Source: Lingula anatina (Eukaryota > Animalia > Brachiopoda). Taken from it: a stretch of DNA of 64,000 nucleotides. Where the stretch lies: NCBI GenBank assembly GCA_051362555.1, contig CM120641.1, forward strand, positions 1,736,001 to 1,800,000. Direction: 5' to 3'. Numbering within the stretch: position 1 is the first letter of the stretch; each line of letters begins with the position of its first letter. Shown piece by piece: positions 2,749 to 42,419 of this stretch. The position numbers were made by a program, and so were the translations under genes. The notes beneath the pieces were generated by a model. It was not told the origin of the DNA and did not search any database. It was given only the letters and a program-made list of their open reading frames with translations.

Positions 2749-2785
<37 letters not shown>

Positions 2786-17700: not shown

Positions 17701-18070
17701 ATTTCTGATACGAATAACTCGGCTGTGCCATCCTCCTTCAAGTTCCACGGGTTGCCCGCCGTATACTCCGCATCTTTTTCTTGTGTGCCGTTTATAGACG
17801 GAGGATTTATTAAAACCTGCAGTGGGAGCAAATTTTACATCACGCGTGGCCTTCACCAATGTTACCCGCTAGTTCAATAGGTGACAATAGAGGGTAGCAG
17901 GTTCATTACATTCAGCTACGCTAGCATCTACGCTTGGTCGCCATAATGGTTACAACAGTGACTGAAAATACTACATGTAATATTTGACAACTTCAAACAG
18001 CAGAAAATTATTTATCCTAGAAATTTTAGGATTGTGCCTTGATCAGCTGGGCACACCTCATCCAAAACAG

Positions 18071-18125
<55 letters not shown>

Positions 18126-20619
18126 TCATACCACTTTGAGTAGATGACCAGACCAAAGTTAGACCATTACAACTTACCATTCATTTCGCCATTATTGCAC
18201 TGCGGTTTCTCATTTTGTCTTACTGTGAAAAGAACAATATGTTCAACGTTACAAAGATGGGAAACGATTTGCAATGAAAATATGGCCGTTGGCCAAAACG
18301 GGCCTTTGAAAATGCAGAATTTTGGACATTTATCTACCTGACTGTTAGGGTTGAAAAACTTGCAGTTCCTCTACATTTGGCAAATGATACACAGATAAAA
18401 GAGAACAGCATTTCTAAGAAAATGACCGACAAAGATGATGCTCAGCTAATACCTGATGCTAGATCATAACTGAGGGTACACGGAAAATGAGCTGCATCAC
18501 TGCGGGTGTGATAAATCATGTAATACTATTGATTTTTGTTATTCTTTCAATATTTATTTTACATATAAAATTTTGGAAACCACCTTGTACCGTATACATC
18601 ATGTTGACAATGTTGTCAGTGCATATGTCGCTGCTTCTTTTCTGGTTCATCAGGAACATTGGACGCTGTGCGTCACACCTTTGGTGTATATATTTTAATA
18701 TAGTCTGACATAAAAATCTTTTAAATTTGATTTTTTTAAAATTTTTTTTGTACAGTAAAAGACTCAACTTAGTTCCTGATAAAAGATATAGGTAATTTGA
18801 GAGAATCGCATAAATAAAAATCTTAGTAATGAGTCCCACTTAAAGTGACCTATTTTTTACCTAAAGAATCAGGCAAAATTTAAACTTTTTCTCTTTATTA
18901 TTGCATCATGGCCACTTCTCAAATAAATTTATGTGAATTTATTTCTTCAAGCTATCTCGTCAAAGAAAAAATAATTTGTATTTTGAAAGATTATGCAAAA
19001 GAGGAAAAACTTGGTAAAAAAAGAGGAATGTATATGTCCCGCCAGTTTTGAAAAAGGGTTATCTCGAACAATCAGTGATGGATCAACAGTTTCATCAACT
19101 TGGACTGTTAATATAAAAATTTGTGACTGTACCAAGTTTTACTACTCTGAAAATTAATGTATCGATATTTATCTCCGTAAACATGATCATATGACAAATA
19201 TCGTCCAGAATCGTTTTCATAACTAATTAGATGTTAATGGAATGTGAATCTATGAAATTTGTTAAGCACGGCACTCATCATGACAAAGCCTACCATGGAT
19301 CGCAAAAAATAGTTCCAATGCATCGAATAACTTAATCTATATGACGTTGTAGCGGCAATGCTGTTATCACCTAATAACTTGCAGGGCGAAACTCACCACA
19401 GCATTGGGTCCGTTTCTTGTCCATGCACAGTCTTGTATCAATGAGCTCGGTGCCAGCTTGTCTTGAACAGTCAGCCTCGCAACGACCGCCACAGAAGGTC
19501 TCACAAATGCTTTCCCTTTCTGAAGTAAAGACGCAATCACGTTTATCAGTCTTTGTAGGGCTTGTGCTTGGAAGACAAAAATAATTAAAATTGTTATTGA
19601 TTAAAAATTAAAATTAAAATTGTTATTGATATCTTGGTCTTTGTTATACCCTAGCTTATTACTTAGTTCAGAAAAAGAGTAAGATTTAATATGTAGTATA
19701 TTTGTACAGTGGTATTATATTATACATTATGCAACGTCAATAGTCAAGAGTAAGATTGTGTTTCGCGCATATGTCACTTAATTATGTAAATATGAATTAT
19801 TCAAACGTTATAAACTATCAAAATACATTTGTTTATGCGGCCGATTTTTCACCTTGTTTTCAAGGGTTCAAATATCTGGCGTATTTATACTCACTCCTCT
19901 TGACGCAGCAAGTATTAGGGCAACCACCAACCCCGTAGATTTCCACTTCATCTTTTTTACACCATGGTTTACATTTTCCTTCCAGTTGGAAGCACTGAAC
20001 CACACCCCATTTGCTTGGAAGTTTGAGTGACTGAAGAGTTTCCTTCGGTGATAGCGTCCCAGCGCTTGGCTCTGCACAGAAAATGAATCTCAAATGAGGA
20101 TCAAGTCCGTCGTTGAAATCAATTGTAAGGTGTTTTAAAAAGGAACGTGTTTGTAGGATATTCGTTTTATGTTCTGCTTACAGTTTTAAAAATTCTAGTT
20201 TTATGTGAATACTACGAAGGTTAGGACCTGTCCTTAAATTGTAGATAACCCCCGACACTGTCACCAAAAGCTAACAATATGACAATGAAATTAATTTATC
20301 TATTTCTTTTTTCCGAAAAAAGGTCCATTGCACTTTTTCCTATCAGGGTAAAAGGCGTTAACTCATTTATTTAATTTGTTATTCTGGAGCTAACTGAAGA
20401 TTTACAAAGATTCTGACAAAAGTTGTCCGATTTTGAACATATTCTTTCTCTCATTACTACTGACACAGCAATGGCGTTCATTTACATGGAAAATTACCCA
20501 ACATCAAACCATAAATCAAATTCGATCCACTTATTAAAAATAAATAATAAAGAGCATTTACCTGTAAACAAAACTAGAAGCAAGACAAATTTCAGATATC
20601 TCACTTGCTGAAGATCCAT
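134..20619 (-). CDS. Gene A: inverted paralogue of gene B with a signal peptide, 2 defensin-like modules, 23 open CCP/Sushi exons and a Thr-rich tail; ~1609 aa only if the broken exons are skipped, otherwise truncated at 200 aa or a pseudogene
   Basis: Exons in transcript order: 20562-20619 (MDLQQVRYLKFVLLLVLFT), 19895-20071, 19397-19519, 18178-18222, [17565-17816, two stops], 16081-16335, [15224-15327, remnant], 14608-14793, 14162-14350, 12607-12789, 11907-12089, 11280-11468, 10288-10473, 9858-10043, 9429-9614, 9006-9173, 8296-8469, 7789-7968, 7328-7522, 6632-6820, 5365-5550, 4935-5120, 4506-4691, 4067-4234, 3364-3537, 2828-3007, 2306-2494, 1430-1606, 516-701, 134-279 (TGA). An AATAAA lies on the minus strand at 30-35. 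Confidence 0.75.
3600..3748. mobile_element. Fold-back element (duplicate at ~8558-8695)
   Basis: ~45-bp imperfect inverted arms AATAAGAGTAATTTTTCTTCAATCAACAGCTAATATTGACAG / CTGTCAATGTTAGCTGCTGATTAAAGAAAAATTACTC. Confidence 0.55.
4480..5560. repeat. ~430 bp exon-plus-intron unit repeated three times (repeated again at 9400-10480)
   Basis: Three ICQKPPT.ANAVVSGAPL..NIFQDDTVTYSCKTGY.QNGGSAVRTCTNGAW.GKDI.C exons at ~430 bp spacing with similar introns. Confidence 0.9.
5986..6234. mobile_element. MITE with CAGGGGCGG/CCGCCACCG ends and a 5-bp TSD (hAT5-like)
   Basis: Flanks TCTAA/TCTCA. Absent from the duplicate block at ~10886. Confidence 0.6.
6240..6500 (+). mobile_element. 3' fragment of an RTE-clade LINE (second copy ~10895-11135)
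   Basis: KERQIQFTGHIDRKGQFGDLILAGKIPRKKARGRQRLLFLNQLK resembles the RTE RT C-terminus (GK..G.R.RGRQR). It is present in both tandem copies. Confidence 0.65.
12882..14050. mobile_element. Tc1/mariner-type MITE with TA TSD, carrying a nested MITE
   Basis: TIRs CACACACTGGACAATATAAGTGTCACCCC / GGGGTGACACTCCTATTGTCCAGTGTGTG flanked by TA. Empty site in gene B at ~33415. Confidence 0.8.
12937..13914. mobile_element. Nested MITE (Tc1/mariner/pogo-like, TA TSD)
   Basis: Perfect TIR GGGGAGACCGGGGCTAGTTGG / CCAACTAGCCCCGGTCTCCCC, with internal GGGGCAAGTTGG subterminal repeats. Confidence 0.85.
15224..15327 (-). pseudogene. 3' remnant of a CCP exon (counterpart of B 31513-31701) left by a ~1.18 kb deletion
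   Basis: Reads RVIYV*KPSYHGTVESVQMVCLRGSWRGRVLDCQ, with TGA replacing a Cys codon at 15309-15311. It is fused at a CAG to sequence matching B ~30390-30420. Confidence 0.8.
17565..17816 (-). pseudogene. Gene A exon 6 (divergent CCP) with two in-frame nonsense codons
   Basis: TAG at 17617-17619 (CAG Gln in B) and TAA at 17578-17580 (GAA Glu in B). Splice sites are intact. Confidence 0.85.
18075..18124. repeat. (TA)n microsatellite
   Basis: Pure AT dinucleotide run. Confidence 0.9.
19397..20071 (-). CDS. Gene A exons 3-4: tandem beta-defensin-like cysteine modules
   Basis: Exons encode CFQLEGKCKPWCKKDEVEIYGVGGCPNTCC and CETFCGGRCEADCSRQAGTELIDTRLCMDKKRTQCC. All Cys and splice sites are conserved with gene B. 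Confidence 0.7.
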
Positions 20620-24136: not shown

Positions 24137-24442
24137 GTAAGTCGTCTGTGAAAAAATGACACCTGGATATAGATTTGGGGAAGTAAATTACTGGTTAGTA
24201 TTTCTGTTGTTAATATATACCGTGGATTCTTCCGATGCGCTACTAAGCCAATCGAGTATGTTGAAGTATCTGTAATACCTTTATTTTTTCCAAATTTTAT
24301 TGTTTCGGACAGAAGTAGATTGCATTACGAAAAAAAAAATTAAAAAAACCCCCAAAAATCCAATACTTTTCAATGAAAGCCCCCTTTAGCCACATAAATG
24401 TATATTGTTTTTTTTTTCCAGAATGTGATCCAGTGTTAAACA

Positions 24443-25352
24443 ATGTATCTTCAGCAAGTGAGATATCTGAAGTTTGTCTTACTTCTAGTTTTGCTTACAG
24501 GTAAATGCTCTTTATTATTTATTATTAATAGTAGATCGGATTCGATTTTTATAATTTTTATGTAAATGAACGCCAATGCCGTCAGTAGTAATGAAAGAAA
24601 TAATATTCAAAGTCGGGCCACTTTTGTCAGAGCCTTTGTAAATCCTGAGTTAGTTCCAGAATAAAAAATAATAAATACATAAAAAAGTTAATTTGTATTA
24701 CCCTGCTGGGAAATAGTGCAATGGCCTTTTTTCGGAAAATGAAATGAATTAATTGATTTTGTATAATCGAATTTCATTTTCATGGCAGTGTTGGGGCTTA
24801 TCTAGAACACAAAGACACATGTTATTAGAATCTTTGAAACTGTAAGCAGAAGAAAAAACGGGTATTTTACTTTACATACGCATTCCATTTTAAATTTGTT
24901 CCAACGACAGACTTGACCTTATTTGAGATACGTTTTCTGAGCAGAATCCAGTGGTGGAAAGCCCACACCGAAGAGTCTTCAGTCACTCAGACTTCCAAGC
25001 AAATGGAGTGTGGTTAAATGTTTCCAACTGGATGGAAAATGTAAACCATGGTGTAGAAAAGATGAAGTGGACATTTATGGGGTGGGTGGTTGCCGTAATA
25101 GTTGCTGCGTCAAGAGGAGTGAGTATAAAGTTTTTAACCTCTGATAACTAGGTGAAAAGTAGTTAACAATAAACTCGTGTATGTTAAAAATTCATAACGT
25201 TAGAATAATTCACATTAGAAAATAAATAAGTGGCATTTGTGCGAGGAAAAAACTTCTCTGACTACTGATGTTGCGTCTAATACGTATGCCACATACTGTA
25301 TAACATCCTACTCTTTCCTGAACTAAGTAATGACTAGGAGGTAACACAGACC

Positions 25353-25398
<46 letters not shown>

Positions 25399-28300
25399 GT
25401 TTGATTCCAAGCACACGCCTTACAACAACTGATAAACGAAATTACTTCTTTATTTCAGAAAGTGAAAGCATTTGTGAGAACTTCTGTGGCGGTCAGTGTG
25501 AGGCTGACTGTTCAAGACAAGCTGGCACCGAGCTCAATGGTACAAGATTATGCATGGACAAGAAAAAGACCCAATGTTGTGGTGAGTTACGTCCTGCTGC
25601 AAGTTATAAGGTTTTAAAAGCATTGCCGCTCCAATGTCACATATATATTAGTTTTTTAGCGATCCAATGTAGGCTTTGTCATGAAGAGTGCCGTGCTTTC
25701 CAAATTTCACCTCATAGATTCACATTCCATTAATATACAATTAGTTATGAAAGCAATTCTGGATGATACTGATTATATGGCAGGTATGATGGCAATAAAT
25801 ATCGATACATTTTCAATCAATTGAAACTACATGTAGGAGAAGTTATAGATTTTCATATTAACAGTAAAAGTTGATGAAAGTGTTGACCCTTCACTGATTG
25901 TTCGCGATGATCCTTTGCCAATACGTGCCTGGACATATACATGCCTCTTCTTTACCGAACAACTTCCCTTGTGTATTAATCTTTCATAACACAAATTATT
26001 CACATAAATTAATTCTGAGAAAGTGCACAAATAAAGAAAATAAAATACAATTCAGCATGACGTCTCAGGTAAATAGAGTACATGTACGCAACATTTAATG
26101 GGGCTCATAATCAAATTCTTTTGTACGGTTTCTCTCAAATTACTTGTAACGTTTTTCCCGTTATCATGAACATAGTTTGAAACCTTCACTGTACAAAAAT
26201 AAACGAGAAAATCACAATATTTATATAAATATGTCAGAAATTGGTGAAAACCAGAAAATAAAGGTTGTTACGCTCCGTATCCAAACTTCCTGTCGAACCA
26301 GAAGTGCACCAACGGTATACATGTAATTGTGACGGAATTGTTGACATGATGTAGATGGTACAAGGAAGTTGCCAAAAGTATTATTTATACGTAACGTATT
26401 AAAAGAATAACACAAATTCATAGTCTTACATGATTTATCACACCCGCGGTGATGCAAGCCATTTTATGTCATAGTGTATCCTCTGTTTTAAGGTAACATC
26501 AGATATAAGCCGGACATCTTCTTTATTCAGTCAATTTTTGCCTCTTTTATCTTTGTATCACTTGCAATGTGTGGGGGAATTGTAAGTTTTTCAACCAGTA
26601 ACAATCAGACAGATTATTATTGGTGTCCGAAATTTTGTATATTTTATATGCACGTTTTGGCAAGGGGGCATATTTTCATTGCAGTTTTTATCCCATATAA
26701 CATTTGACATATTTCACACATTGTTTTTAACAGTAAGACAAAATGAGAAACCACAGTGCAATAATGGCGAAACGAAAGGTAAGTTGTAATGTTGTTCACT
26801 ATGGTCTGGTCATTTATTCAAATTGGTGTATGCTACATTTGAACCAAATGGGTGCATCATGATTAAAAAGGCGCTGTAATGAACGTGTCAAAGCTTACAT
26901 CAACGTGACTATAATTACGAAAATATTAGTCACTTGTTAGAGTATATACATGAAGTTGCTTTAATGCTAAAGGCTTTCTGGAATATCTTCAATCAACTGT
27001 GTCTTTACTGCATGTCTACTATATATTTGCTTCTTAGTGCATGCATATTTGCTCTAGTTAATCGCACGTTTTTAAGTTAGTTATTATTGGCGCACTCGTA
27101 ATATTGTCTAAACTTAAGATTTTATGAAAATGTACGTTAAAGCCAATACTAGAATCCGTCAGATCAGATAACGTTACATCAACTACCCTTAGATACCGTA
27201 GACATAGTCACCTCTGATGTACCAGTAGACGCCAGCGTACCAATTCACTTATCTGGTTCTACATGTAGTTCTAAGCACATCTTCCCATCTTGTACGAGTA
27301 GACGTATGGTAGAATACCGAAATATACCTTGTACACACGCTTTGCTTTGCTAGTTTTTATACACACCTTTCAGTGCTAGTATGCCTTTTGCCGAAAACAT
27401 AGGCCTACACTCAAGCAACAGATATAGGGGAAGGTAGGCTACAAATTCATAAACGAGACACAACCGGAAGTTGTCTTTTTGGCGGTAAACCGCAGGATCC
27501 TGAAGGGGCACGGTATGGCCCTTTCATCCATATTGAGAATGTTCATCTGTGGATCCAGCGATACGGAACCGAATATCATGGAGATAGAGACTGTGGACGA
27601 TCAAATCAGAAACTAAGAAAACGGCTTAACAGATATTCTCAAATGAAAGATTTTTCAGTTGTATCCAGTTGATATAGGTACAATTCCTAAAATTTCCAGG
27701 AAAATAAATTTCTTCTGTATAAAGTAGCAACGGGAATTGTGTGCCTCTAAGCGTCACATATGACATGTAGTATTCCCAGTCACTGTAGTCACCAGTGTAG
27801 CGACCAAGTGTAGTTGCTAGAGTAGCTGAATGTAGATAAACCTGGTACCCTTTATAACCACCCTGTGAACTAGCAGGTAACATTGGTGAAGGCCACGCGT
27901 GATGTAAAATTTGCTCCCACTGCAGGTTTTAATAAATCATCTGTCTATAAACGAGACACAAGAAAACGATGCGGAGTATACGGCGGGCAACCCGTGGAAC
28001 TTGAAGGAGGATGGCATAGCCGAGTTATTCGTATCAGAAATGCTGACCGTTGGATACCGCAGTATCAAACCACCTATTATTGTCGACGGGGATATGTTCA
28101 AAATGGCACCAATGCAGTAGCTCAGTGCAGGGTGGACACTGGCTATTACTGGACCACTCCCGAAATAACGTGCACACGTAAGTCTATGGCGAAATTTGCA
28201 CGGCAAGCATATTGCAGCTATTATCCGAGCTTATAGCTGCCAGTTTGTTCAAAGCCCACTTACAAGTTTTTGTAATTTATCAAACAATTAACATATAAAA

Positions 28301-31300
28301 CCAGCATGTGAAATGAAACCCCAAACAGATTTCTGGAGATGTTATTCCTGACATATAAGAGACGACATTTTCATCTCTTACCCCAGAAGAGTTCAAAACG
28401 TGCATTTCACGTACTTTTTCCTACAAATTTTCATCCCCTGTAGTCCTGTCATTATTGCCGGTTGTTCTTAGCATTGAGAGATGCGAGTGTGGTAACCCAT
28501 ACATGTATATTGCAACGGCCATAGTTTTTGTTCAAGAACCTCTCGCTGCTTCCGATATTCTTGGTATGAATAAAACGTAATTCCACATCGAACGCGTCAG
28601 TTAATTCCAACTGGGTAATGCATTGACCAAAGTCCAGCTAACCCTCATACAGATATTATAAAACCCAGTAAAACATTGCAGGTGTGTGATAACATGCTGC
28701 CACACAGAGCGATGTATGCCAGAACTCCTCGAGCGTCAACGAAAGTGTTTAAGATGACAGTGTATTATTTGTCACACAAACCAAGAGAAAATACTCGCAT
28801 TTCACACCAGAGTCGGACAGTGACGTAATAGGCTGTGTTGTTATGCATCAAGCTACTGAAGCAGTAATGAGGGTCGTTTCCCAATTCCAACCATTGAACC
28901 ATGGAATATTCCAACCATATTCCAACCGTTTCTCTTTTCCAACCATTGTGCTTCAAGAGATATCAGACAGTTCAGTCTTCTGTAAAGTCGATGTGATATG
29001 GGCTAACCTTCAGGTAGCATTAGACCCCGTGGTCATTTTATATAAATTGACCTCATTTCGTCTTCTACTGGCAGTTCCATTGATGCACGGTTTCTAGGTT
29101 TACTGTTTCTTGTGTCCATCTGCGAACGTCCGGAAATTTCAACGCGAGTAATAATATCATTGGGTCTTTAGGCTTTGCTAGATTTCCAAATATTATTAAA
29201 GAAATTCTGATAGTGAAACCTTTTTTATGTACCACTTATCTTCATAATCTGCTCTGTGACTGGCAAAGATTTACAGAGAGTCACGAAATGCTATATACAA
29301 ACACATACAGCGTGAGTAGCATCTGTAGTGTAGATATTGCAATAGCTAAATTTAGGCAACCCCTCCTCTCCTGGTCCAATTGCCGTTTTGTTGTAATAAA
29401 ATGTTTAACAAATAGCTGATCCAACTGCAGGTATGTTCAAACCATCCGTCCATAAACGGGAAACAGATAAATGCATTTGGGGTGGAAAACCTCAAGATGT
29501 TGAAGGGGCGTGGTATGGCCATGTCGAACGCATCCAGAATGCTAATTTCTGGATCCCGATGGAGCAGTATCAGGTCACTTACCACTGCAAGGCTGGTTTG
29601 GCCCAAATTGGCACAAATCCCGTGTCTCAGTGCACATTTGCCACCAAATATTACTGGAGCAAACCAGATATTAAATGTATACGTAAGTTTGTTGTAGATG
29701 TTGTCTAAATGATAAAAATAGACAGCTATGATTCAAAAGTCTCATAAGATTAAGGATGGACTAGAAAAAAAAAAATAAAAGCTCTAACTTATTTTCCATG
29801 AATACAGTTTCTGTTATACATGTTTATCTACTCCATCTTTTTGTCTGGATTTTTTCTTTTTACACTTACTTATAGTTGTAACTAGTTTTTTTCTGTACTC
29901 ACGCCTTTAGTTTTTATTTTAATATATTTTTGAAATTTCTCTTGATAAATTTAAAAACGGCTTTGCGTGATAAATTTTAAAACCTGCCTGCCAGCTATTT
30001 TCTCGCTTTACACCTCAAGTAAATACTCACAGGTCAGAGCAGTAATACAAGACTGAGTAGTATAGTAGAACGCATATTTGACCAAAACGAATTTGAATTT
30101 GAACAGGCACATATGAACCCGAAAATCGTTTGAGACAGATGCAATATGCATGGTATTAATGGAATTAGACTACAGATGCTGGTTCGTCTATCAATAATGT
30201 ACATCATTAGTATGCGTTTTCACACTGTCACTATCACTGTCACTGTCACAAGTTGGCCTTCATATGCAACTCTGAGGAAGATACAAGGCAGAAAGTCTCT
30301 AGTGTCTTTTTTACCCCTTCCCTCCCACAAAGAACCCCCTCATAAGTGAAATTCTGGACGTTTCATTGGTCTTATATTGCGAGAATCTCATAGATGTTCA
30401 ATCCCCACCCACCCCTGCAGAACACGAACTGTATGGAGAGCCATCCATTTTGCCGTTTGAATGACTGGGTTTTTTGTCTTGGCTTTATGATATATACCTA
30501 AATTCTTTTATGGTTTATTTAAATCGACGAAAAAAAGGAGGCTACGTTTATTATAGGGCCTACTATCTTGTTTTTTATTATTTATTCAAAATCCGCGAAG
30601 AAGGCCTAGGGGCCGAGGGCTTGGATTACATATTACATCTTTATAGTAGATATTCATAGATTCATCAGTATTAGGGGCCTATAACTTACACCATTAGCAC
30701 GTCGCTTGCTGTTTCCGTTTAATTGGCATTTCTGTGAGTGTAGTGGTGCTGAACGGTGCCTCGCTTATTGAATTCCATTAGGATTGTCGTGCATTTTTAT
30801 AAAATAATACATAAGTTTTATCCCAAAATTTAGTTACCAGTCTATCATGTAAGATCCTTCGTTTTTGTATCAACTTGTGCATGGTTTTCTTTAGATTATT
30901 TCTATTTATCAGCAGTATCTTATTTTCCTTAAAATCTATACATGGCAATGATAATTCACCGTATCTGCATAACAGCTAAAAAATATTTTAAAATGGAATC
31001 GGTTTTCTCTTATTTCAGGAAAATGTCCAAAACCTCCTACTATAGCCAATGCAGTGGCGTCTGGGCCAGCGCTCACAGCGTCTAACATCGTTGAAGGGGA
31101 AAAAGTGCGGTACTCGTGTAAAGCTGGCTTTGCACAGACATCTGGGTCGCAAGTCAGGACGTGTTCAAACGGCGCTTGGAGCGGGAAAAACATCGTGTGT
31201 AAACGTAAGTATTTAAATGTATAACAAGCATGTCACATGTAGAGAGAACATATGCACTGAGCCATCTTGATTAGACCTCCCTGACGAAAAAGTCCTATAG

Positions 31301-34300
31301 GGTCTTAAAGGAAATTGGGCCAGTTTCCTATATATCCTATAGGATATTATAGGATCCTATAGGACTTTTCCGTACGGACTGATTTGATTTACCTTACTCT
31401 TCTTGCTTTTTTTGTATTATATGAATAATAAAAATGCTACGTATGGCATACAATGTCAATTATAAAATATGCCGAAATACTTACAAAGAGAGATCTGCTT
31501 TCTATGTTCAAGATACATGTCCAAAGCCACCTACCTATGCTACCTCAGTGGCTACTGGGGCACCTGTCACCGCGTCTCAGATAGTTGAAGGGGACAGGGT
31601 GACCTATGTGTGTAAACCTGGCTATTATGGGGCAGTGGATGATCACGTTCACATGACCTGCTTACGAGGCTCTTGGAGGGGCCGCGTTTTAGATTGTCAG
31701 CGTAAGTCATTTCTATTTAAAATTAAATTGTGTGTGTTTCAAATAATTTTCCAATCATGTTTGCGGAGAAAACTACTTGAAATAGTTACGATTTTTGACC
31801 TGTTTGGGGATTCTTACAGTATTTGTCATTTTTACCCTCTTCTTATCCTTCCTTCCATCCTACCCTCCCTCCTCTCTCTCTCCCTCTCTCTCTCTCTCAA
31901 ACACATTCCAAATGTATGCATTGCAATAAAAAGATACTCCTTTTAAAATTTTAGTCAGAAACACATTTTCAAAACCGGTGCCACTTTCTCGTATCAAAAA
32001 TCTCATAGTGGCAAATGTTTACTGTTACATTGCACTTCAAACAGGGAATTTCAGTGAATTAGGCAATGAACTACTTAACCATTCAGTTATATTTTTTCAT
32101 CTTCCTACCTGTTTATATGATTTTCCACAAGCACCAACAGTTTTTTGCGCAGTTTGATAGCAGTCTTCTTTCTTCAGCAAGGAAATGTAGAGCACCACCA
32201 ACTGAAACCACATTCTATTTCTCCCCAATAAAGACTGTCTACAACAGCGGCGAAAGAATCGTACAAAGTTGCCGAAGTGGATATGCAAGAACTGGCGGGG
32301 AAGCCGTGAGAACTTGTGAACTAGGAACGTGGAAACCTGAGAATGAAAGCATATCGTGCGAAAGTATGTTTTCCTGTTAATTTAAAATGTACTGACTCGA
32401 AATTCTATACAGAGTATACCTCTAAACACTTTGCCTCTTCCAAAAAACCTTAGGGTTCGTCAAATGGATTGCCTTTTAAAGGTTCATACATCATAACTTC
32501 TCCAAAGACAGGTAAAGAAAATTGTAGTAATAGAAATCTATCCAAAGGTTAAAGCTAATGACTTATATAATAAATATAAAGTCTTCATGTACTTGACAGG
32601 GGCGTGCCCGACCCCAGCAAAGCTATCTGGAACTGCGTTAGTCCAGACTACTAGGGGGAAACCTACAGAGTACACAGAAGGAATGTCCGTCAAGTACCAC
32701 TGCCTGGTCGGCTATGGTAAAGTTGGTGGGGATGACACAAGGACATGTACTGCAGGACGGTGGAGTGGTGATGACATTCTTTGTAAACGTAAGCTAATAT
32801 TTATTTATGAATTTTACAATTTACCTTTGTGAAATACACATTAAAAGTCAAAATTTGCCACAAAACCCAATAAAAGCCACCATATAGTTAATCCAAGCTG
32901 GCTTTATTTGTAATTCGAATAAAAAGGTGTTTAATCTTGGTAGACATGTAGGGAAATGTTAAGTTACTTTAACCGTTCAGTTTGTAATGTTTTTTTAATA
33001 TAGATATGTTCATTTCTTCACAGTCTAAGGAATATCTTGGGAATAGAAGTTTATCTAATAAGATGAAGCTGTTAGCTTAGAGAACAACCATCATGGCTTT
33101 ATGTTCTTGTACTTGACAGGGACGTGTCCGACCCCAGCAGACCTACCTGGAGCCGCGTTAGTCCCGAGTTCTGATGGCAAACCTACAGTTTACACAGAAG
33201 GAATGTCCGTCAACTACCACTGCCTGGTCGGCTATGGTAAGGTTGGTGGAGATACCACAAGGACATGTATTGCAGGACAGTGGAGTGGTGATGATATTCT
33301 GTGTAAACGTAAGCTGATATTTCCTTGCGGATTTTATACGCATTGTCAGCTTAAAATTGTCTGGTACTAGTATTTTAACTACAGTAACTAGGAGAATAGA
33401 TTAAAGTAACAAATTAGACAACGATCAATTTCACAGCTAGTATTTAATGGTAATTCTTTTGAAGAAAAAAAAGGAAAAGTAAAAAAATCTTAATGACATA
33501 TTTCTTCTCCAGGTACCTGCATTGCTCCGCCTGCTATCCCCAATACTTCCAGCTCACACGGACCATTTATGTACTTCTATATGGAGGGAGAAGCCATCGT
33601 CTACCTCTGTCAGCCCGGGTTTGCCCACATTGATGGAGACGCAATAAGAACATGTAGATCTGGAACGTGGACAGGGACAGACATTAAATGTGACAGTAAG
33701 TACCCCCACCCCGTATAAAAAGAAAATTAAAGAATAAAATGAATGAATAAAAAGTAAATACAAGTTGCTGTCATGGTTTACGTAAATTTCTTTCTACACA
33801 ACGTTTTATACCACAGCGTGATATGATAAATATTTTGCACACATATTGTTGTCCAGAAATCTGAAAACGCTTTTTTTCTGACAAACTGGACAATGTCTTT
33901 CAATTCACAACGCACACATTTAAAGGCAGACATTTATCCGACAATCAATATTTGTGGAAATTTCAACCATAGGCCTATTCTTTTAGACACCCTATCAGAA
34001 ATTGTTGAGCAAATAACAACCTCTTTTCGGTGTTGAAAGTGTCCAATTTCAGCTTCACGCTAATAACTCACCACTTTTATTCAGCATCATGAGAGAGTGG
34101 CTCTAAAGTGAAACTTGTAACTTAAAGCAATAATAACTACTCCTTTGAGATTCAAAATTCCGCAAGAAATACATTGTAAACAACGCCTGGAAATATATTC
34201 TATTTCATTTTCCCACCAAAACGACTGTTATTGTAGTAAAACTAAAATCTGTGCTTTTCACTTGGGCTTTCGATGCCTTTCTTCGCGGTCGACAATTGCA

Positions 34301-37300
34301 TCCGTTGCCAATGACGTTTAGGTGTCACGCGGATTGTCGCGTTCATTCGAGACCAAAATAACATTGGCGGGAAACCCTCAGACGTAAGTTGCGAGTTTTT
34401 GTACAGTGCGTCGGATAACGAAAAGCCCAGAATTGCACACATTGTAGATATAAATGCATTTTGAGCAAAAAGACGAATATATCTTATGAATCTTATAATA
34501 TCGTTATATAGTGTTGTTGCTGCTTTTCCCGCGGTTTTAAGTAGGTCAGCAGAAACTATCGCTCGATACGAGAGGGCTCCGTCAGTTAAAATCTCTTAAG
34601 AGATTTTAACAAAAAAAAACGTACGTTTAGGAAAAAAACCTGGATTAACTTTGAATGCAGGAATGGGGTCGTTGACCATTGGTAAGTACGGGAAAATTGC
34701 CGTTTTTTCCAGGAAAATCGTATTTTTGGCCAAAACGAAGAGTTATTATGACTTTAAGAATTATATTTATCGATTGCAATATTCTCAACGGTTTGGGATG
34801 GGGCATATGTTTGAAAGAAATTTGCTGTAATTTCTAGGAAACTCCAATATTTTGCTAAGTTTATAAAGCTCTTTACATGCTTCTATGTATTTCTTAAATA
34901 CTCCTCGATATATTTTAGAGATCTGTCAACCTCCGCCACGTTTGGAAAACGGTCGACTATTAGGGAACTTAACGGCTCTCTATACCAGGGGTGACAAGGC
35001 AAATTACACGTGCGCTCCAGGTTACACATCAAACGGTCCCATCAGTGTGCTGTGTGGTGAAGATGGAAAATGGACCAATCTGGATGCAAAAACTTGTAAA
35101 CGTTAGTAATAACTATAGAATGGAATTATTATAAAGGTTGCTGTATCGATTTAAGTACGCTCGATTACGTTGGAGGTAGTTCTGATATGTATGAAGGCAA
35201 ATTTTCGTAGATTGTTTGTACAGTGTTTCTTACTAAAATTCCGAGTTGTTGCTTTTATAAAATTTGAACAATTTGTACATGTACAGTGTATTATGTTATA
35301 GGTACTTGTGTGTTATCAGCTCCCATTGTATGTATACGTAATGTTCTAGGGTCTAGGAGGGGTCATCTATTCCAATCCCCATGGCTTCCCTACAATGATT
35401 TCAAACGCAAAACTATCTAGAAAATAGAGGCAATATAAAAACATATTAGGCCCTACTATCTCTTCATATTACATATACTGTATATAATTAACCGTTATTT
35501 AATTGATGAACATATTTTTGTCGCTTCTTTTGTTTAGGAACATGCCCGACACCACCAACATATCCTCACGCCACTTTGACCCTCCCGCATAGCAGCCAAA
35601 CCCACGTGGAGGGCGCCATCGCCGTCTACAGCTGTTCTCTGGGTTACATGAGCTCTGGGGCTGCTCCCGTGGTGGTCAAAACATGCACAAACGGAAAGTG
35701 GAGTGGCGGGACCTTGAACTGCAAGCGTAAGTTGACCACTCTCTACCTCAGGCCCCTGACGGAGCACAAAGTCCGAATTCACATATCCTCATTAAATAAC
35801 GTGTTTCTGCATACGCCGTTGGAACATGCATCTTGTCCCCACTGTTTTATCAGTTGCCCCCCCTCTTCATAATCATGCATGCACATACAACATTATACAT
35901 TAACGATACTACAAACTGGTAATAAATGAAGCTCTGTATAGTATCTTTTATCGCAAATAGAAAATTATATATACTGTTTCGCTTGATCTGAAAACAAATT
36001 CACCTTGGTAATGCCTATTCATATATTTATTCAGAAGACACATGCCCAACTCCCCCAAAGATACCCAATGCTGTAGCCGGCCAGACATCCACCAGTCACG
36101 GTAGTACAGTACAGTATACCTGCCTACCGGGACATACCAACCTCGGCAATGCCACTACCATGTCCTGTGTATACGGAGAGTGGAAGATGGCTGGGACGAT
36201 GACTTGCACTAGTAAGACGATATCCTACGTTTTTCAGTGTTTTACTGTCATTTTTATGAGTACTCTTGGAAAATCGTATGTTTATAATTTTTTTATAATA
36301 TTTTAAGAACATTTTTCTTTGTAAGTGCATATATTAGATGGCTTACTTTTGGACCATACACAGTGCAAGGGTATGCTAGCTTAACTTTAAGATAAGAGTA
36401 AGATAAGATAAGATAAGAGTTTATTCAGCCATTAATATATAAATATAAGATTCATATAAAACGGAAATTGGACTGCTATTCGGGTTACAAATTATAAATA
36501 AATAAATTATAAATTTCCATTTTTGTTGTTAAAATAAGACACAGCAGATGGGTAAAAACTCTTTAAAAACCTTTTAGATCCCTTAAAAGTTAAAAGCCTG
36601 CAGTTGCTCGGTAAAAATTTAAAAAGCCCATGTGCGGGGTGGGTATAGTCACACATGATTTTCTCTGTTTTTGTTACTGATCTATTAGTATAGATGGCAC
36701 CTAGAGAGGGGAGTTCCAGACCGATGATTTTGCCGCACGTTGATGTGACCATATCTAGACGCTTGCGTTCTTCTACAGTGGCCCGCCCATACCATACTAT
36801 GATTGCAAATGTTTATATACTTTCTATAACGCATTTGTAAAAGTTTGCTAAAATCATTTCATTTGAAGTAAAATCCTTCAACTTTCTTAAAAAATATACC
36901 CTTTGCCTCGCTTTTTTTAACTGTTTGTCTATGTGGTCCTTCCATGTAAGTGAGCTATTGAATTCTACCCCCAGCAGTCTAAAATTGGCTACTTGCTTTA
37001 CTGCAGTGCCACTGATATGAATGGGTTCTTTAACATTTCTATTCTTTCTGAAGTCAACAATCATTTCCTTAGTATTCCCTACATTCAGTAACAAATCGTT
37101 GTCTTTACACCATTGTACAACTGAGTTGACATCGTTTCTATACCAGGTCTCATCATTATCACTTATTAAGCCAATTAAAGTGGTGTCGTCTGCAAACTTC
37201 ACGATGCAATTACTCTCATGAGATGAAACACAATCCAAGAAGTTATAATTTTATAACTTCTTGCACAATCATACGTGAACAAGCTGTACAGACATGGTGA

Positions 37301-40300
37301 CAGAACACAACCCTGAGGCGCACCTGTATTTAAAACCACAATATCAGAAGTACTTGTACCCACTTTCACAGCTTGTCTCCTGTCTAATAAAAAATCTAAA
37401 ACCCAACTGCATAAAAATGAAGGAATTTTTAGTTCGTTTAAAAGCTTAGCATAAAGTTTTTGTGGAATAATGGTATTAAAAGCCGAGCTGTAGTCTATAA
37501 ATAATGGTGTCGTGCTGGTAATAAAGAAACCCAAGTATCCTTGCGTATGTGTTTTTCTTATCTGCGTGTTCTAAAATGTTGTGTATGCACATACTAAGAG
37601 CGTCATCTACGCTTCTATTGCGTCTATATGCAAACTGAAAGGGATCAAGTGTCTCTGGTACAATGGTTTTAATATACGACAGAACAAGTTTCTCTAGAAT
37701 TTTCATTGGAACTGGGGTCAACGCAACCGGACGGAGATCGTTTAGGCAAGAAACTGTTTTGGACTTCGGCACAGGAATGATAGTAGCTGTCTTCCATGCC
37801 CGCGGAACTCGTTGGGAAAGCAGCGATAGATTGTAAATATCCGTGAATACATGTGCCAGTTGTGGTGCACATGTCTTTAGAAGCCTTGGCGAAATACCAT
37901 CTGGTCCAGATGACTTGTGTGCGTCGAGGCCCATAAAATGACACTGAACCTGCCATTTCTGAACAGAAAAGGGCGGTGGGTCATGTGGATGTGCATTTAG
38001 TGGAGCCGATCTTAAGTCCGAGTTGTTGGCAATGTCAAACCTAGCGTAAAATTCATTCAGCTTGTCGGGAAGTGCTGTGTCGTCGTCACTCAGTACGTGT
38101 TTTGGACCTTTGTATTTAGTGAGTGATGACATGTTTGACCATAGCTGTCTTACGTTATTGGTCTCAAACTTTTCTTCGAATTTCTTTTTAAAGTCTCTCT
38201 TGGCGTTCTTGATGGCCCATCGCAGGGTTGCTTTTAACTTCCGATAGTTTTTGGGGTGTTGTTCTTTGTTACGGTAGGCTACATCTTTTTCCTTAATGAG
38301 CTTGCGGATCTTGTTGTTGCACCAGAGCTTGTTGTTAGTAAACTGCTTCACTTGCTTTCTCGGGACACACATTTCTTCACAGAATTGGATGTAACCAGTA
38401 ACGGCATCAGTGTAGTTGTTAACGTCCTCAGTATCTCTGAATACCTCCCACTCGGTGGCCTCGAGGCAATCATGGAGGGTATCTATGGCTGCTTGGTTGA
38501 AAACTTTTACTGTTTTTATGGTGGGCTTGTTTTCCTTGAATTGTTGCTTGTATGTTGGAATTAGCAAGATAATGCAGTGGTCGGAGTTTCCTAAAGAGGA
38601 TCGTTTGACTGGTTGGTACGCCCCTTTAATAGGACAATAGCAGTGGTCCAAAATGTTATTGCCCCTTGTCGGAAAATTGATGACATGGCGATAATTAGGT
38701 AGTGTCGTTTTCAAGTTGGCTTTGTTGAAATCACCAAGGACAATAGATAATGAATCAGGTTCCGAATTATCATGGGATGTGACGACTGATGTGAGGTTTT
38801 GTATTGCTAATTTTGTATCAGCCCGGGGGTGGATGTAGACGGCTGTAATTATGACACTAGTGAATTCACGTGGGAGATAGAATGGCCTGCACTTTAGAGT
38901 TATCAACTCAATGTCTGATGTACATATTTCATGTAATTTCTTAACTTCCGTGCACCATGCATTGTTAATGAGAAAACACACACCTCCGCCTTGCCTCTTA
39001 CCCGTGCTTATCCGCTCTGTCTTGCCTATATATCGAAAATCCCTCTGGTTGAAGGCACTGATCGGGAATGTTCTCAGTTAGCCATGTCTCTGTAAAGCAA
39101 TAGATAGTACAATTCTTGTAGTCTGCAAAGTTCGATATTCTGTAGTTTAGTTCGTCCATTTTGTTATAAAGACTTTGAACATTAGCCAGGATTATGCTTG
39201 GTACTGGTGACTTTAGTCTTCTTCTCCGTTGTCTTACTAGTTTGCCTCCCCTCCTGCCCCTTTTACGTATTCCGTATCGTCTAGCTGTGGGTAATATAAA
39301 ATGAGCAGACTGCAAGTTATGCATTCTGAACTTTGTTGCATCAGGGCGATTTCTGAACTAATATTAAAACTATGCAAAAAATACGTATTTTTCTAAATTT
39401 TTCCTCCTTAATATCTTTCGGGTTCTTCGTATTCCAGTAAAACTCAAATGAGTTTTACGAATCGATAGATAAAATACTTCTGACTGCCCCGTATCAAGGA
39501 TGAAAATCAATGCAATATGGCAATCTTTTATAGTGTAATGACAAAACCGCATGAAAATAGTGACGTAGCTGTAATAAGATTGACGTGTCAAACTGCTGCT
39601 GTTCTTGCACTCGTAGAAGCGTATCCAGACCCCCCTAAACTGAGTGTGGGGGGGGGGGGGTAATTCTGAATGTCCTGTAACAGTGAGGGTATATGGTAGT
39701 CTTATTTAGTGTTATGTCAACACTTCAATACGAAGTGACACCACTGCATGAAAGATTGTTGTATCATACAGATTCTGTTCTTGTAGAAGCGTGTCCAGAC
39801 CCCCCTAAGCTGACCGGTGCACATATAACGTCTGCAGCAAGGAAATTCTATGTGGAAGGCCACAATGTCACCTATCAGTGTGAGAGAGGGTACCAGAGCA
39901 CAACTTATCCAGAAACAGCACACACCAAGATGTGTACCAACAGTGTCTGGAAGGGAACAGACTTCACCTGCAAACGTCAGTACGATTAGAACTATTCAAA
40001 GAGCGTCTTTTAAAATTGTACGTGCTGTACGACCTTAACGAATTTTAAAAACCTACACAATCCTTCCAAAATTCAGGTTATTGGTTAGAAAAACTTGTAT
40101 TTGAGATATTTCCAAATGTTCAATGGTGGCTGTTCTTTCTTTTGGTATTATGATACAGCATACCACATCCTTATATCATGAGACCCTTTTTTCATTGACA
40201 GGGGTTTGTCAATCCCCTCCAGACGTTAAGAACGCCGTGGTAAAGCCTCCTCCACCCCCATTCTTTGAAGGAACAGCAGTGCAGTATACTTGTATCCCTG

Positions 40301-42419
40301 GGTTAGTGGCAGTAAATAGGACTGCTCTGAAAACCTGCGTTGGAGGCAACTGGACTGGCGATGACATCGACTGTCAAAGTATTTACTTAATTTCAGTTAT
40401 TTGGTGTTTTTTGTTAGACATATGAATGTAACATATATATATATATGAAATACCGATATAATATAATTTGGTTAGCTTTGCTCAAAAAACAGATCTCCAC
40501 GACTGGACTTGAAATTTTGAAACATGATTATGTCTTTTACCATCTTCTAAAAAATGTTCTCTTTTCAGAGGTATGTGCTCAGTTACCCTACGTTGAGAAC
40601 ACTAACGTCATAATGAACCACGTCCCCGGCGGGAGACTTATAGAGGGCGCTAGGGTTATCCACCGCTGCCAGACAGGCTACACTCAGGTCGGAGGCAATA
40701 GTCTCCGTGTGTGCCATGACAGCAGCTGGACAGGGAAGGACATTCAATGTGAAAGTGAGTAGTACCAGCGGGGTTGAAAACTCAGGCCGGGTGTACGTTG
40801 AGTAGAGAATCCTGATATTGTGTCCCTTTTACACATAGTACACCTAAAATAAAGCGTGCACGGAGTAACCATGAGTAACTCAAGATGCATTTTTTTGGGT
40901 TTCTTTGTCGCAATTGTGCCCATGATATATAACACAAGGGACTTACTTATGCTTCTGTTATTGTGTACGTCGAGCTGCTCATCAAAGTTATTTTCTATGA
41001 GGGTTTTTATCGCTTTGAAGGTGTCAATTGGGGGGAAATGTTGTCCTCCAGAATATATGTAGGCAGAAAATATATATTTAGGACATTTTCAAACGCGCAC
41101 GGTGTACCTTTAATTTTCAGAATCGTGCCAAGCGCCTCCAGCTATCCGTAACACCGAACTGGCCGACACCTCATCCACATATCGGCATGGTACCGAGGTC
41201 CGCTACCAGTGTGTGAATGGAACGCTTAAAGTTGGGGGATCAGAGACTAAACAGTGCGTATCAGGGAACTGGTCCACTCCGGATGATCTACACTGTGAAA
41301 GTAAGTAAACACAGGATAGCGCTACGTGATTAGGCCGATATATTAAATGTGACTCCGTAGCATTAATGTATTTATTTATTGTTAATGAACTAGGTTTGGG
41401 GCGATTTCAAGTTTTGATTTAATTTTTCTAATGACGTTGCCAAAACACATCCTATCACTATTGCCCCTTTACATTTTAACTTGATCAAGGAACAAATCTT
41501 TTGTGTGTTTTCATAAAAGGTGAATTCAGAAGGTCTAAAGGACCTGTGGTTTATCCCTACATCAAATTTTACTCAAGAGGCATAACTTTCCAACCAAAGT
41601 ACATTAAAAAAACAAACAAACAAACAAATATCCCATTTCAGAACCCTGCAGCCGCCCTCCTCACTTCCCGCTCAGTCGCCGTGTATTGCTGAAGGTAGGA
41701 CCATACGTGCCAGAACATTACGTCCAAGGAAACCAGGTGAAATACGAGTGCAGACCAGGTTATGAGAACATCAACACTGGGGACATCAAGACGTGCGAGG
41801 ATGGTCGCTGGGTTGGCGCAGACGTTAACTGTCAAAGTATGGTCTATGTAAAGATAATTATTTTTTGTTCTATAATGTTTCACTTCAAATAGGAAAACAA
41901 AACCTAATGGTTACGCTGAAACGTTTCGTTATAGTCCAGGGTATATACTTGAATCTCAATAATAATGCTACTGATAATTAAGTATTTGAGGTCGACTATA
42001 ATTTAAAATTTGAAAATGAATAAATTGGGAATGATAGATTAGTTTGTGACGGGAATAGAAAAATAGATATACACTAGATAAACTAATTGAATAGGTACGA
42101 TGTACTTAAGATCATCTGTATTACAAAAGAATTTTATCTAGCCTTCAAAAGGCCGATTTAAATAAAGTATATTTCTCAACAGACACAAAAAGGTCTTCAC
42201 AAAGGTACACACCATTTCTCCTTTACAGAATTGACAACCACCACGACCGTCACCACCGTGACCACGACTGAGAAACCAATCCCCACTACAGAGACCAAGG
42301 AGCCATTTGCAGGAGGCACGAAACCAACACCTACGCCAAAGATAATAGACCCCGTGGAGCCAGGGTCGGGGGATGCCGAGAAGGATGATAACTTGGGCCT
42401 GGTTGAAGAAATCCTCTAG
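24443..42419 (+). CDS. Gene B: predicted secreted protein of ~1230 aa with a signal peptide, 2 beta-defensin-like modules, 16 CCP/Sushi domains and a Thr/Pro-rich tail (multi-Sushi, factor H/CR1/SVEP-like by domain content)
   Basis: GT-AG exons read by hand: 24443-24500 (MYLQQVRYLKFVLLLVLLT, signal peptide), 24945-25118, 25459-25581, 26734-26778, then CCP exons 27926-28177, 29431-29682, 31019-31204, 31513-31701, 32178-32363, 32600-32788, 33120-33308, 33513-33695, 34919-35101, 35538-35726, 36035-36211, 39787-39975, 40202-40378, 40569-40754, 41121-41300, 41642-41836, and last exon 42229-42419 (TAG). All internal exons are phase 1-1 and open. CCP signature C-x2-PP...G...Y-x-C-x2-GY...C...W...C. 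Confidence 0.85.
24945..25581 (+). CDS. Gene B exons 3-4: tandem beta-defensin/big-defensin-like cysteine modules
   Basis: Exon 24945-25118 encodes CFQLDGKCKPWCRKDEVDIYGVGGCRNSCC (C-x6-C-x3-C-x12-C-x3-CC). Exon 25459-25581 encodes CENFCGGQCEADCSRQAGTELNGTRLCMDKKKTQCC. Both have GxC at the second core Cys and a terminal CC. Confidence 0.7.
25353..25398. repeat. (AAT)n microsatellite (another at 2749-2800)
   Basis: Pure AAT run. Confidence 0.9.
31279..31378. mobile_element. ~100-bp hairpin element
   Basis: Ends CCCTGACGAAAAAGTCCTATAGG / CCTATAGGACTTTTCCGTACGG with internal CCTATAGG repeats. Confidence 0.5.
34126..34753. mobile_element. TTAA-TSD MITE (Kolobok-like)
   Basis: TTAA at 34122-25 and 34754-57; ends AGCAATAATAACT / AGTTATTATGACT. 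Absent from the gene A counterpart (~12240). Its 3' part matches 63327-63494. Confidence 0.7.
36389..39595 (-). mobile_element. Decayed near-full-length non-LTR retrotransposon (APE endonuclease + RT, Rex1/Babar-like) in a gene B intron, antisense
   Basis: ORF pieces 38998-39324 (LANVQSL..CFTETWL), 37476-38981 (GDFN, LDHCY, SDH, GPDGI, RPVALT, QFAYR), 37199-37500 (FIDYSSAFNTI, GAPQGCVLSP) and 36813-37238 (FADD, KKARQRVYFLRKLK, FYKCVIES). There is a (TCTTA)n-type 3' tail at ~36389-36418, with frameshifts and a stop. The 5' boundary is approximate. Confidence 0.9.

What the first reader, a model, noticed from the sequence alone, without database searches (positions are those of the whole stretch)
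24443..42419. Secreted defensin-CCP mosaic: two beta-defensin-like heads on a 16-23 Sushi-domain stalk
Seen in sequence: after a signal peptide come two exons with C-x6-C-x3-C-x12-C-x3-CC and C-x7-C-x3-C-x13-C-x7-CC patterns, then a long CCP array and a Thr-rich tail with no anchor; the same layout exists in paralogue A. Established: the horseshoe crab/mollusc big-defensin C-terminal domain has C-x6-C-x3-C-x13-C-x4-CC, tick carboxypeptidase inhibitor is a double beta-defensin fold, and all-CCP secreted proteins such as factor H regulate complement. Inference: a microbe-binding or protease-inhibiting defensin head joined to a complement-regulator-like scaffold would be an invertebrate innate-immune (or matrix) architecture I do not recognise from described families. 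Automated annotation would probably call it just 'Sushi domain-containing' and miss the head.
Basis: partly seen in the sequence, partly recalled or inferred. Interest (0 to 1): 0.85.

Follow-up and report, generated by a model that had tools for sequence, protein, structure and literature searches.

The report
Lamp-shell defensin-headed Sushi chain proteins
The brachiopod Lingula has a small gene family in which two cysteine-rich head modules, the first likely folded like a beta-defensin, sit on a chain of 14-24 Sushi domains; the proteins are predicted to be secreted and the heads likely bind or block other proteins rather than kill microbes.

Summary
Gene B is a 21-exon, 1,230-residue open frame: signal-like start, two Cys-rich exons, a Cys linker, 16 Sushi exons and a Thr-rich tail with no anchor. 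RefSeq models of Lingula anatina join the same head to the Sushi array and call it 'SVEP1-like', though Pfam finds only Sushi. A second Lingula gene carries a 38%-identical head with the same cysteines. Paralogue A is a chimera of these two genes. Head 1 is probably a beta-defensin fold: its only PDB sequence hit is helianthamide (E 0.009) and the five Foldseek rows under 4 A rmsd are all defensins, though none is significant. Head 2 has 7+1 cysteines and no hit. The heads are near-neutral and under purifying selection, unlike typical antimicrobial defensins, and lack the amylase-binding YIYH motif. Closest designs: LEV-9/Hasp (WAP head plus CCP array) and anemone mucins with a defensin-like domain. 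No homologue outside Lingula and no description were found in limited searches. Verdict: a new domain combination of a known design; function untested.

The parts
24443..24500 (+). Gene B coding exon with ATG and signal-peptide-like segment (an untranslated exon ends at 24137)
   Evidence: basic n-region plus hydrophobic run, highest hydropathy window of the protein; no signal-peptide predictor was run
24945..25118 (+). 24-residue basic spacer plus head 1, C-x6-C-x3-C-x12-C-x3-CC, ending in Lys-Arg
   Evidence: Pfam Defensin_beta_2 E 0.09, below cut-off; helianthamide E 0.009 by profile
25459..25581 (+). Head 2, seven cysteines C-x3-C-x3-C-x3-C-x13-C-x7-CC
   Evidence: all seven kept in the divergent Lingula gene P0011/P0020; no Pfam or PDB hit
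26734..26778 (+). 45-nt linker exon with the eighth cysteine of the head-2 module
   Evidence: cysteine kept in P0020; present in RefSeq models
27416..27672 (+). Decayed third long-Sushi exon copy (keeps the HKR motif, loses the Sushi cysteines, ends in a stop; AATAAA at 27703); relic or alternative last exon
   Evidence: about 62% identity to the two long exons; absent from paralogue A
27926..28177 (+). Long atypical Sushi exon 1, opening with KR and RKR dibasic sites
   Evidence: not in the three RefSeq B-type models
29431..29682 (+). Long atypical Sushi exon 2, opening with a KR site
   Evidence: in RefSeq isoform X1 (82 of 83 residues identical), absent from X2 and XP_013396888
31019..41836 (+). 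14 canonical Sushi/CCP exons, one domain per phase-1 exon
42229..42419 (+). Thr/Pro-rich, acidic tail and stop; no transmembrane or GPI-like segment
36816..39348 (-). LINE-like endonuclease/reverse-transcriptase element with broken frames inside a B intron
   Evidence: RVT_1 E 1.2e-05, Exo_endo_phos_2 E 0.022
11280..20619 (-). Paralogue A, 5' half: B-type signal, heads, linker, two long Sushi exons (17816-17565 has two stops) and five canonical Sushi exons
   Evidence: 74-94% identity to B, 17-45% to P0020; stops
134..10473 (-). Paralogue A, 3' half: 17 Sushi exons and tail; 16 Sushi exons and the tail are of the second Lingula gene type, one (6820-6632) is B-type inside a 5-kb tandem duplication
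   Evidence: 83-97% identity to P0020; duplicate pairs pN/pS 0.30

Best explanation
Gene B encodes two cysteine-rich head modules on a chain of 16 Sushi domains and a threonine-rich tail, and is likely a secreted Lingula coat or matrix protein whose stalk would hold a likely beta-defensin-fold head out to bind, and probably block, extracellular proteins such as foreign hydrolases. Shown: the exon structure, the open frame, the family in Lingula (two head types and a chimera), purifying selection on head and stalk. Inferred, in falling order of confidence: secretion (about 0.9); head 1 is a beta-defensin fold (about 0.75); head 2 is a defensin-like core with a fourth disulfide to the linker cysteine (about 0.5); the cationic stalk (net +36) binds anionic glycans or matrix (about 0.4); the head is a binding/inhibitor module and not a membrane-active antibiotic (about 0.55); the Lys-Arg sites at the start of the long Sushi exons let a convertase release the head when those exons are spliced in and leave it tethered when they are skipped (about 0.35).
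For: Open 1,230-aa frame with one module per phase-1 exon. RefSeq models join head and stalk and differ in the long KR-bearing exons: X1 has one, X2 none. All 14 head/linker cysteines are kept in a second gene at 38% identity. Only PDB sequence hit of the head is helianthamide, a beta-defensin-fold amylase inhibitor (E 0.17 single; E 0.0089 profile; 177,635 sequences). Pfam Defensin_beta_2 in 2 of 7 and Defensin_big in 1 of 7 alignment rows, sub-threshold. In Foldseek the five listed rows with rmsd under 4 A are helianthamide, HBD4, gallin, HBD6 and oyster big defensin. Head-1 spacing is one residue off ovodefensin A, Cx5Cx3Cx11Cx3CC (PMC9138766). Net charge of heads +2/0/+1 and -1, +1 and 0 in P0020. 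pN/pS 0.32 in heads, 0.35 in shared Sushi exons. Precedent for defensin-like inhibitor domains on secreted mucins (PMC10604346).
Against: No fold match is significant: model pLDDT 58, pTM 0.43; Foldseek 0 of 47 rows at E<=0.001; VIA-align 0 of 48,161 and 0 of 46 at Z>=2; single-sequence model failed (pLDDT 37). Helianthamide's YIYH amylase site is absent, so no target is identified. The KR after head 1 and the long KR exons are absent from the second gene, so processing is not family-wide. Expression was nearly nil in 4 of 4 RNA runs laid (12 reads in all, no joint listed), which does not suggest an abundant mucus protein in those samples. No accession of the family is in the 2026 shell-proteome supplement. 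In LEV-9 the small head is dispensable.
Confidence: 0.4

Rival explanations
1. Innate-immune hybrid: the heads recognise or kill microbes and the Sushi stalk recruits or regulates a C3-type complement system.
For: Defensin-like head; best PDB hits of the stalk are CR1, factor H and CR2; dibasic sites as in big-defensin precursors, and big defensins can be anionic (PMC7203481 passages); the locus is dynamic (chimera, duplication), as immune loci often are (recalled).
Against: Heads near-neutral and not fast-evolving relative to the stalk; the CR1/factor H hits follow array length and are expected of any Sushi chain (inference); no hydrophobic big-defensin N-terminal domain; no induction data.
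Confidence: 0.22
2. A LEV-9/Hasp-like extracellular scaffold: the Sushi array clusters receptors or organises a matrix (for example at synapses or muscle), and the head is an accessory module.
For: LEV-9 (WAP plus 8 CCP) and Hasp (WAP plus up to 17 CCP) are secreted, processed and of the same overall design (PMC9083331); low read depth fits a restricted site; many Sushi exon-skipping isoforms in RefSeq.
Against: The head is not WAP (no Pfam WAP hit); no LEV-9/Hasp-like protein surfaced in the searches; rapid exon gain, loss and chimerism are unexpected for a conserved synaptic organiser (inference).
Confidence: 0.18
3. A gamete- or egg-coat recognition protein with a homogenising repeat array.
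For: Near-identical tandem Sushi repeats (8-9 copies of one type in P0020), chimerism, restricted expression; double and ovo-defensins occur in bird egg coats (PMC9138766).
Against: pN/pS about 0.3 throughout, no sign of positive selection; no tissue data.
Confidence: 0.12
4. The heads are not defensins but an unrelated small disulfide fold (for example clip-like) with convergent spacing, so the protein is an ordinary lineage-specific Sushi array.
For: All defensin hits are below curated or significance cut-offs except the profile hit at E 0.009; head 2 has 7+1 Cys and no hit; Atlas gave no usable hit twice.
Against: Three independent weak signals (Pfam, PDB profile, Foldseek) all name beta-defensin folds and none names clip, WAP, EGF or TIL.
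Confidence: 0.08

Closest known systems
C. elegans LEV-9 and Drosophila Hasp (WAP domain plus 8 or up to 17 CCP domains; PMC9083331 passages)
   Same: Secreted, small disulfide-rich N-terminal module on a long CCP array, proteolytically processed.
   Different: Head here is two defensin-like modules, not WAP; Thr-rich tail; dibasic sites in skippable exons; no evidence of a synaptic role.
Helianthamide/magnificamide and sea-anemone mucins with a beta-defensin-like amylase-inhibitor domain (PDB 4x0n; PMC10604346 sections 3.3 and 4)
   Same: Best sequence and structure match of head 1; defensin-like domain carried on a larger secreted Pro/Thr/Ser-rich protein.
   Different: YIYH site absent; two heads; carrier is a 14-24-domain Sushi chain, not a short mucin.
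Avian AvBD11 and ovodefensins (PMC9138766 passages)
   Same: Two defensin-type modules on separate exons; head-1 spacing close to OvoDA, and the inner six cysteines of B head 2 start like OvoDB (Cx3Cx3).
   Different: Those are free peptides under 10 kDa; here fused to a 130-kDa chain, with an extra cysteine pair.
Big defensins (PMC7203481 passages)
   Same: Six-cysteine domain ending in CC, phase-1 intron upstream, dibasic sites.
   Different: No hydrophobic N-terminal domain; not a short peptide precursor.
Factor H / CR1 regulators of complement activation
   Same: Long one-exon-per-domain CCP array; top PDB hits.
   Different: Extra head and tail; no evidence of orthology or C3b binding.
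SVEP1 (RefSeq name of these proteins)
   Same: Many Sushi domains.
   Different: No VWA, EGF or pentraxin domain; the name is a best-hit label.

Membership tests
beta-defensin (trans-defensin) domain | Six cysteines ending in a vicinal CC, with spacing in the known range | tested here: met
   Head 1 Cx6Cx3Cx12Cx3CC, Cx6Cx3Cx12Cx4CC in P0020; ovodefensin A is Cx5Cx3Cx11Cx3CC. Head 2 ends in CC but has 7 Cys plus one in the linker.
beta-defensin (trans-defensin) domain | Three-stranded antiparallel sheet | tested here: inconclusive
   AF2 model pLDDT 58 with strands in both heads; Foldseek helianthamide prob 0.72, rmsd 1.8 A over 30 columns, E 1.4; VIA-align no match.
beta-defensin (trans-defensin) domain | Disulfides 1-5, 2-4, 3-6 | not testable with these tools
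   The folding tool returns no bond list or coordinates; model confidence is low.
beta-defensin (trans-defensin) domain | Score above the Pfam curated cut-off | tested here: not met
   Defensin_beta_2 13.6 bits against 22.2; best E 0.047 among 7 rows.
antimicrobial beta-defensin peptides | Small (<10 kDa), mostly cationic free peptide | tested here: not met
   Part of a 1,230-aa chain; head charges +2 to -1.
big defensin | Hydrophobic N-terminal domain before the six-cysteine domain | tested here: not met
   A 24-residue Ser/Pro/Lys spacer, net +4; Defensin_big only E 0.16 in 1 of 7 rows.
helianthamide-type amylase inhibitor | YIYH binding site | tested here: not met
   Absent at the aligned place in all heads; site as described in PMC10604346.
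tick carboxypeptidase inhibitor (double defensin) | Sequence or fold match (Pfam Inhibitor_I68, PDB) | tested here: inconclusive
   No hit; searches are weak for 40-residue domains. The family's features are recalled, not read.
LEV-9/Hasp | N-terminal WAP domain | tested here: not met
   No Pfam WAP hit.
LEV-9/Hasp | Secreted CCP array of 8-17 domains | tested here: met
   14-17 Sushi modules in the RefSeq models, 16 in B; secretion inferred.
SVEP1 | VWA, EGF and pentraxin domains | tested here: not met
   Sushi is the only real Pfam family in P0003 and P0020.
regulators of complement activation (factor H, CR1) | C3b/C4b binding with cofactor or decay activity | not testable with these tools
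   Only generic Sushi similarity.
arthropod clip domain | Pfam CLIP-type match (likeness recalled from memory) | tested here: inconclusive
   No CLIP family listed at E<=1 to 10; filters drop weak hits.

The most novel reading that the evidence does not exclude
Lingula has built a new class of host-defence protein by exon shuffling: a double trans-defensin head on a complement-regulator-like Sushi chain, in which alternative splicing of Lys-Arg-bearing exons switches the head between a released peptide and a tethered form, and recombination swaps heads and stalks between genes.
Probability: 0.2. Interest if true: 0.8.

Novelty: new variant of a known kind. Interest (0 to 1): 0.52.

Why it matters
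Beta-defensin folds are known mostly as free peptides. If the head is one, this family shows the fold used as a phase-1 shuffled exon module on a 130-kDa extracellular scaffold in a lophotrochozoan, hidden under a wrong 'SVEP1-like' label. It gives a small, easily made domain to test for new inhibitor or binding activity, suggests that trans-defensin domains are under-counted in large invertebrate proteins, and shows head-stalk swapping between genes in one genome. It does not yet open or settle a long-standing question, and it was found only in Lingula.

Tried and rejected
No whole genome was held, so the family could not be counted genome-wide. Single-sequence AlphaFold2 failed; the 7-row model is weak; VIA-align found nothing. 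ESM Atlas: no usable hit for either head type. Stand-alone relatives of 51-163 aa: no candidate; longer relatives: only Lingula, 1 of 4 and 3 of 1,889 candidates; these word-based searches are insensitive. The HMMER search of 1.84 billion representatives used the long Sushi exon, not the head; 9 hits, 8 of them generic repeat proteins and one the second Lingula gene. No RNA holder was listed by index; raw reads were laid on 25440-31230 only, 4 of 9 runs, so the head-1/head-2 junction was not covered. Head 1 and head 2 were not aligned to each other, so whether they arose by internal duplication is open. Shell-matrix role: none of the family's accession stems in the supplement of PMC13425148; the SVEP1 of the 2015 shell proteome is an 8,126-aa VWA/VWD protein. 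An RGD in one B Sushi exon is not kept in A or RefSeq and was set aside. A as a dead pseudogene: rejected as main reading because its internal duplicates show pN/pS 0.30 (p 2e-07) and the stop-bearing exon is skippable in frame. A as a misassembly: unlikely, since its B-type part differs from B at about 18-21% of synonymous sites. Earlier scan notes: none. Literature searches without a description of this architecture; the Lingula immune-gene survey (PMID 29278680) was not held and may mention it.
Full report
Observation. I rebuilt both genes from the window. Gene B (+) has 21 coding exons from 24443 to 42419, every intron GT-AG and phase 1, giving 1,230 residues with no internal stop. After a signal-like start come a 24-residue basic spacer, head 1 (C-x6-C-x3-C-x12-C-x3-CC), head 2 (seven cysteines, C-x3-C-x3-C-x3-C-x13-C-x7-CC), a 45-nt linker exon with one more cysteine, two long atypical Sushi exons, 14 canonical Sushi exons and a Thr/Pro-rich acidic tail. 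No hydrophobic stretch after residue 30 reaches the level of a membrane anchor (best 19-residue mean 1.18). A defensin-like cysteine pattern occurs 2 (strict) or 4 (loose) times in the window and never in 60 shuffles.

Organism and annotation. The head exon found one cluster among 4 candidates: Lingula anatina RefSeq XP_013405347/8 and XP_013396888, named 'SVEP1-like' (a brachiopod). These models join the same head to the same Sushi exons and tail; most exons are 85-100% identical to gene B, exon 3 is 45 of 57. Pfam finds only Sushi in the whole protein, so the SVEP1 name is a label, not membership. Isoform X1 includes the second long Sushi exon; X2 and XP_013396888 include neither. I could not see what evidence underlies the RefSeq models.

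A family, and a chimera. A search with the first long Sushi exon returned 9 proteins; one, XP_013405295, is a second Lingula gene on the same RefSeq scaffold with six listed isoform sequences. Its head is 38% identical to the B-type head and keeps all 14 head and linker cysteines, so the double head is an old, conserved unit of this family. It has no Lys-Arg after head 1 and no long Sushi exons. Paralogue A, head-to-head with B on the minus strand, matches B in its first 11 exons (74-94%) and the second gene in 17 of its last 18 (83-97%). The junction lies inside a 5-kb tandem duplication, so the chimera predates that duplication. A has two stops in the first long Sushi exon and an altered splice acceptor before the ATG exon, with another AG 12 bases on, yet its eight duplicated exon pairs show pN/pS 0.30 (38 synonymous, 39 non-synonymous differences; p 2e-07), so it was under selection after the chimera formed, probably by skipping the broken exon (inference).

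Is the head a defensin? Head 1 gives Pfam Defensin_beta_2 at E 0.09-0.12, below the cut-off; 2 of 7 alignment rows hit that family and 1 of 7 hits Defensin_big. Against 177,635 PDB sequences the only hit is helianthamide, E 0.17 for one sequence and 0.0089 for the profile. AlphaFold2 failed on one sequence (pLDDT 37) and was weak on seven rows (pLDDT 58, pTM 0.43). Foldseek gave 47 matches at E<=10 and none at E<=0.001; among the listed rows the five with rmsd under 4 A are all beta-defensin folds, led by helianthamide (prob 0.72, 1.8 A over 30 columns), while the rest, mostly TNF-receptor domains, have prob under 0.1. VIA-align found nothing. Head-1 spacing is close to ovodefensin A as given in PMC9138766 (passages). 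So three weak signals agree, and none is decisive. Head 2 has no hit; its inner six cysteines could form a defensin-like core with the first and the linker cysteine as a fourth bond (inference from the conserved pair). The disulfide pattern could not be tested.

How it likely works. The heads are near-neutral (+2 to -1) and evolve no faster than the stalk (pN/pS 0.32 against 0.35), which fits a module that binds a fixed partner better than a membrane-active antibiotic; big defensins can be anionic, however (PMC7203481 passages). The nearest relative by sequence and shape is an enzyme inhibitor, and anemones carry such domains on mucins, where the authors propose that they shield glycans from hydrolases (PMC10604346, sections 3.3 and 4 read); the YIYH amylase site is missing here, so the target would differ. 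The mature chain is cationic (net +36, pI 8.75) and has 13 N-glycan sequons, consistent with binding anionic matrix (inference). Each long Sushi exon, and a decayed third copy at about 27416-27672, begins with a Lys-Arg motif; including or skipping them would make the head cleavable or tethered (inference). I therefore favour a secreted coat or matrix protein that displays a binding or inhibitor head (0.4), over an immune/complement hybrid (0.22), a LEV-9/Hasp-like scaffold (0.18), a gamete-coat protein (0.12) or a non-defensin head (0.08).

Expression. No indexed RNA holder was listed; nine runs were offered by species label. Four were laid on 25440-31230 (6-30% of each run read): 4, 2, 1 and 5 reads, no joint listed. 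In run X1 the depth equals about 159, 45 and 29 bases in the bins of head 2, the 45-nt linker exon and the start of the first long Sushi exon, on the strand expected for a plus-strand transcript; this fits one spliced read across the three exons but is a single molecule at best. The reads in the other three runs lie in introns. The head-1/head-2 junction lay outside the stretch laid. The family is not in the 2026 Lingula shell-proteome supplement (0 hits for its accession stems; the three Sushi proteins listed are others; main text seen as passages), and the SVEP1 of the 2015 shell proteome is an 8,126-residue protein (PMC4595640, passages and supplement rows).

Comparison and novelty. The design 'small disulfide head plus long secreted CCP array' is known from LEV-9 and Hasp (PMC9083331 passages), double defensins from AvBD11, and defensin domains on large secreted proteins from anemone mucins. 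The combination of defensin-like heads with a Sushi array was not found outside Lingula (Atlas) or in print, but these searches are limited and the main Lingula immune survey was not available. It fails defining tests for SVEP1, big defensin, helianthamide-type inhibitor and LEV-9/Hasp membership, and meets the cysteine test but not the score or structure tests for a beta-defensin domain. I rate it a new variant of a known kind, interest 0.52: real, mis-annotated and testable, but lineage-restricted and without functional evidence.

Noticed in passing
window 27416-27672 (+): Decayed third long-Sushi exon that ends in a stop with AATAAA about 30 bases on; could be an alternative last exon giving a short head-only protein. 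AATAAA occurs 1.4 times per kb here, so the signal is weak.
   Followed up: partly
window 134-20619 (-): Paralogue A is a chimera of the two Lingula head-Sushi genes, with a 5-kb internal duplication spanning the junction.
   Followed up: yes
window 15144-15328 (-): Remnant of a Sushi exon in A; the exon matching B 31019-31204 and part of the next are deleted.
   Followed up: partly
window 36816-39348 (-): LINE-like endonuclease/reverse-transcriptase element with broken frames in a B intron.
   Followed up: partly
window about 45000-58000 (-): Calpain gene (Peptidase_C2 and Calpain_III) with an N-terminal five-residue QE/DRN-type repeat, and a 2-kb direct repeat at 46880-48865 / 49898-51855.
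   Followed up: partly
window 24945-25118 versus RefSeq P0001-P0003: The head-1 exon differs from RefSeq at 12 of 57 residues while many stalk exons are 95-100% identical, and the RefSeq head shares residues with both A and B; this hints at gene conversion or strong allelic variation.
   Followed up: no
P0020 and isoforms (RefSeq XP_013405290-5): Eight to nine near-identical Sushi repeats and several exon-skipping isoforms in the second gene.
   Followed up: partly
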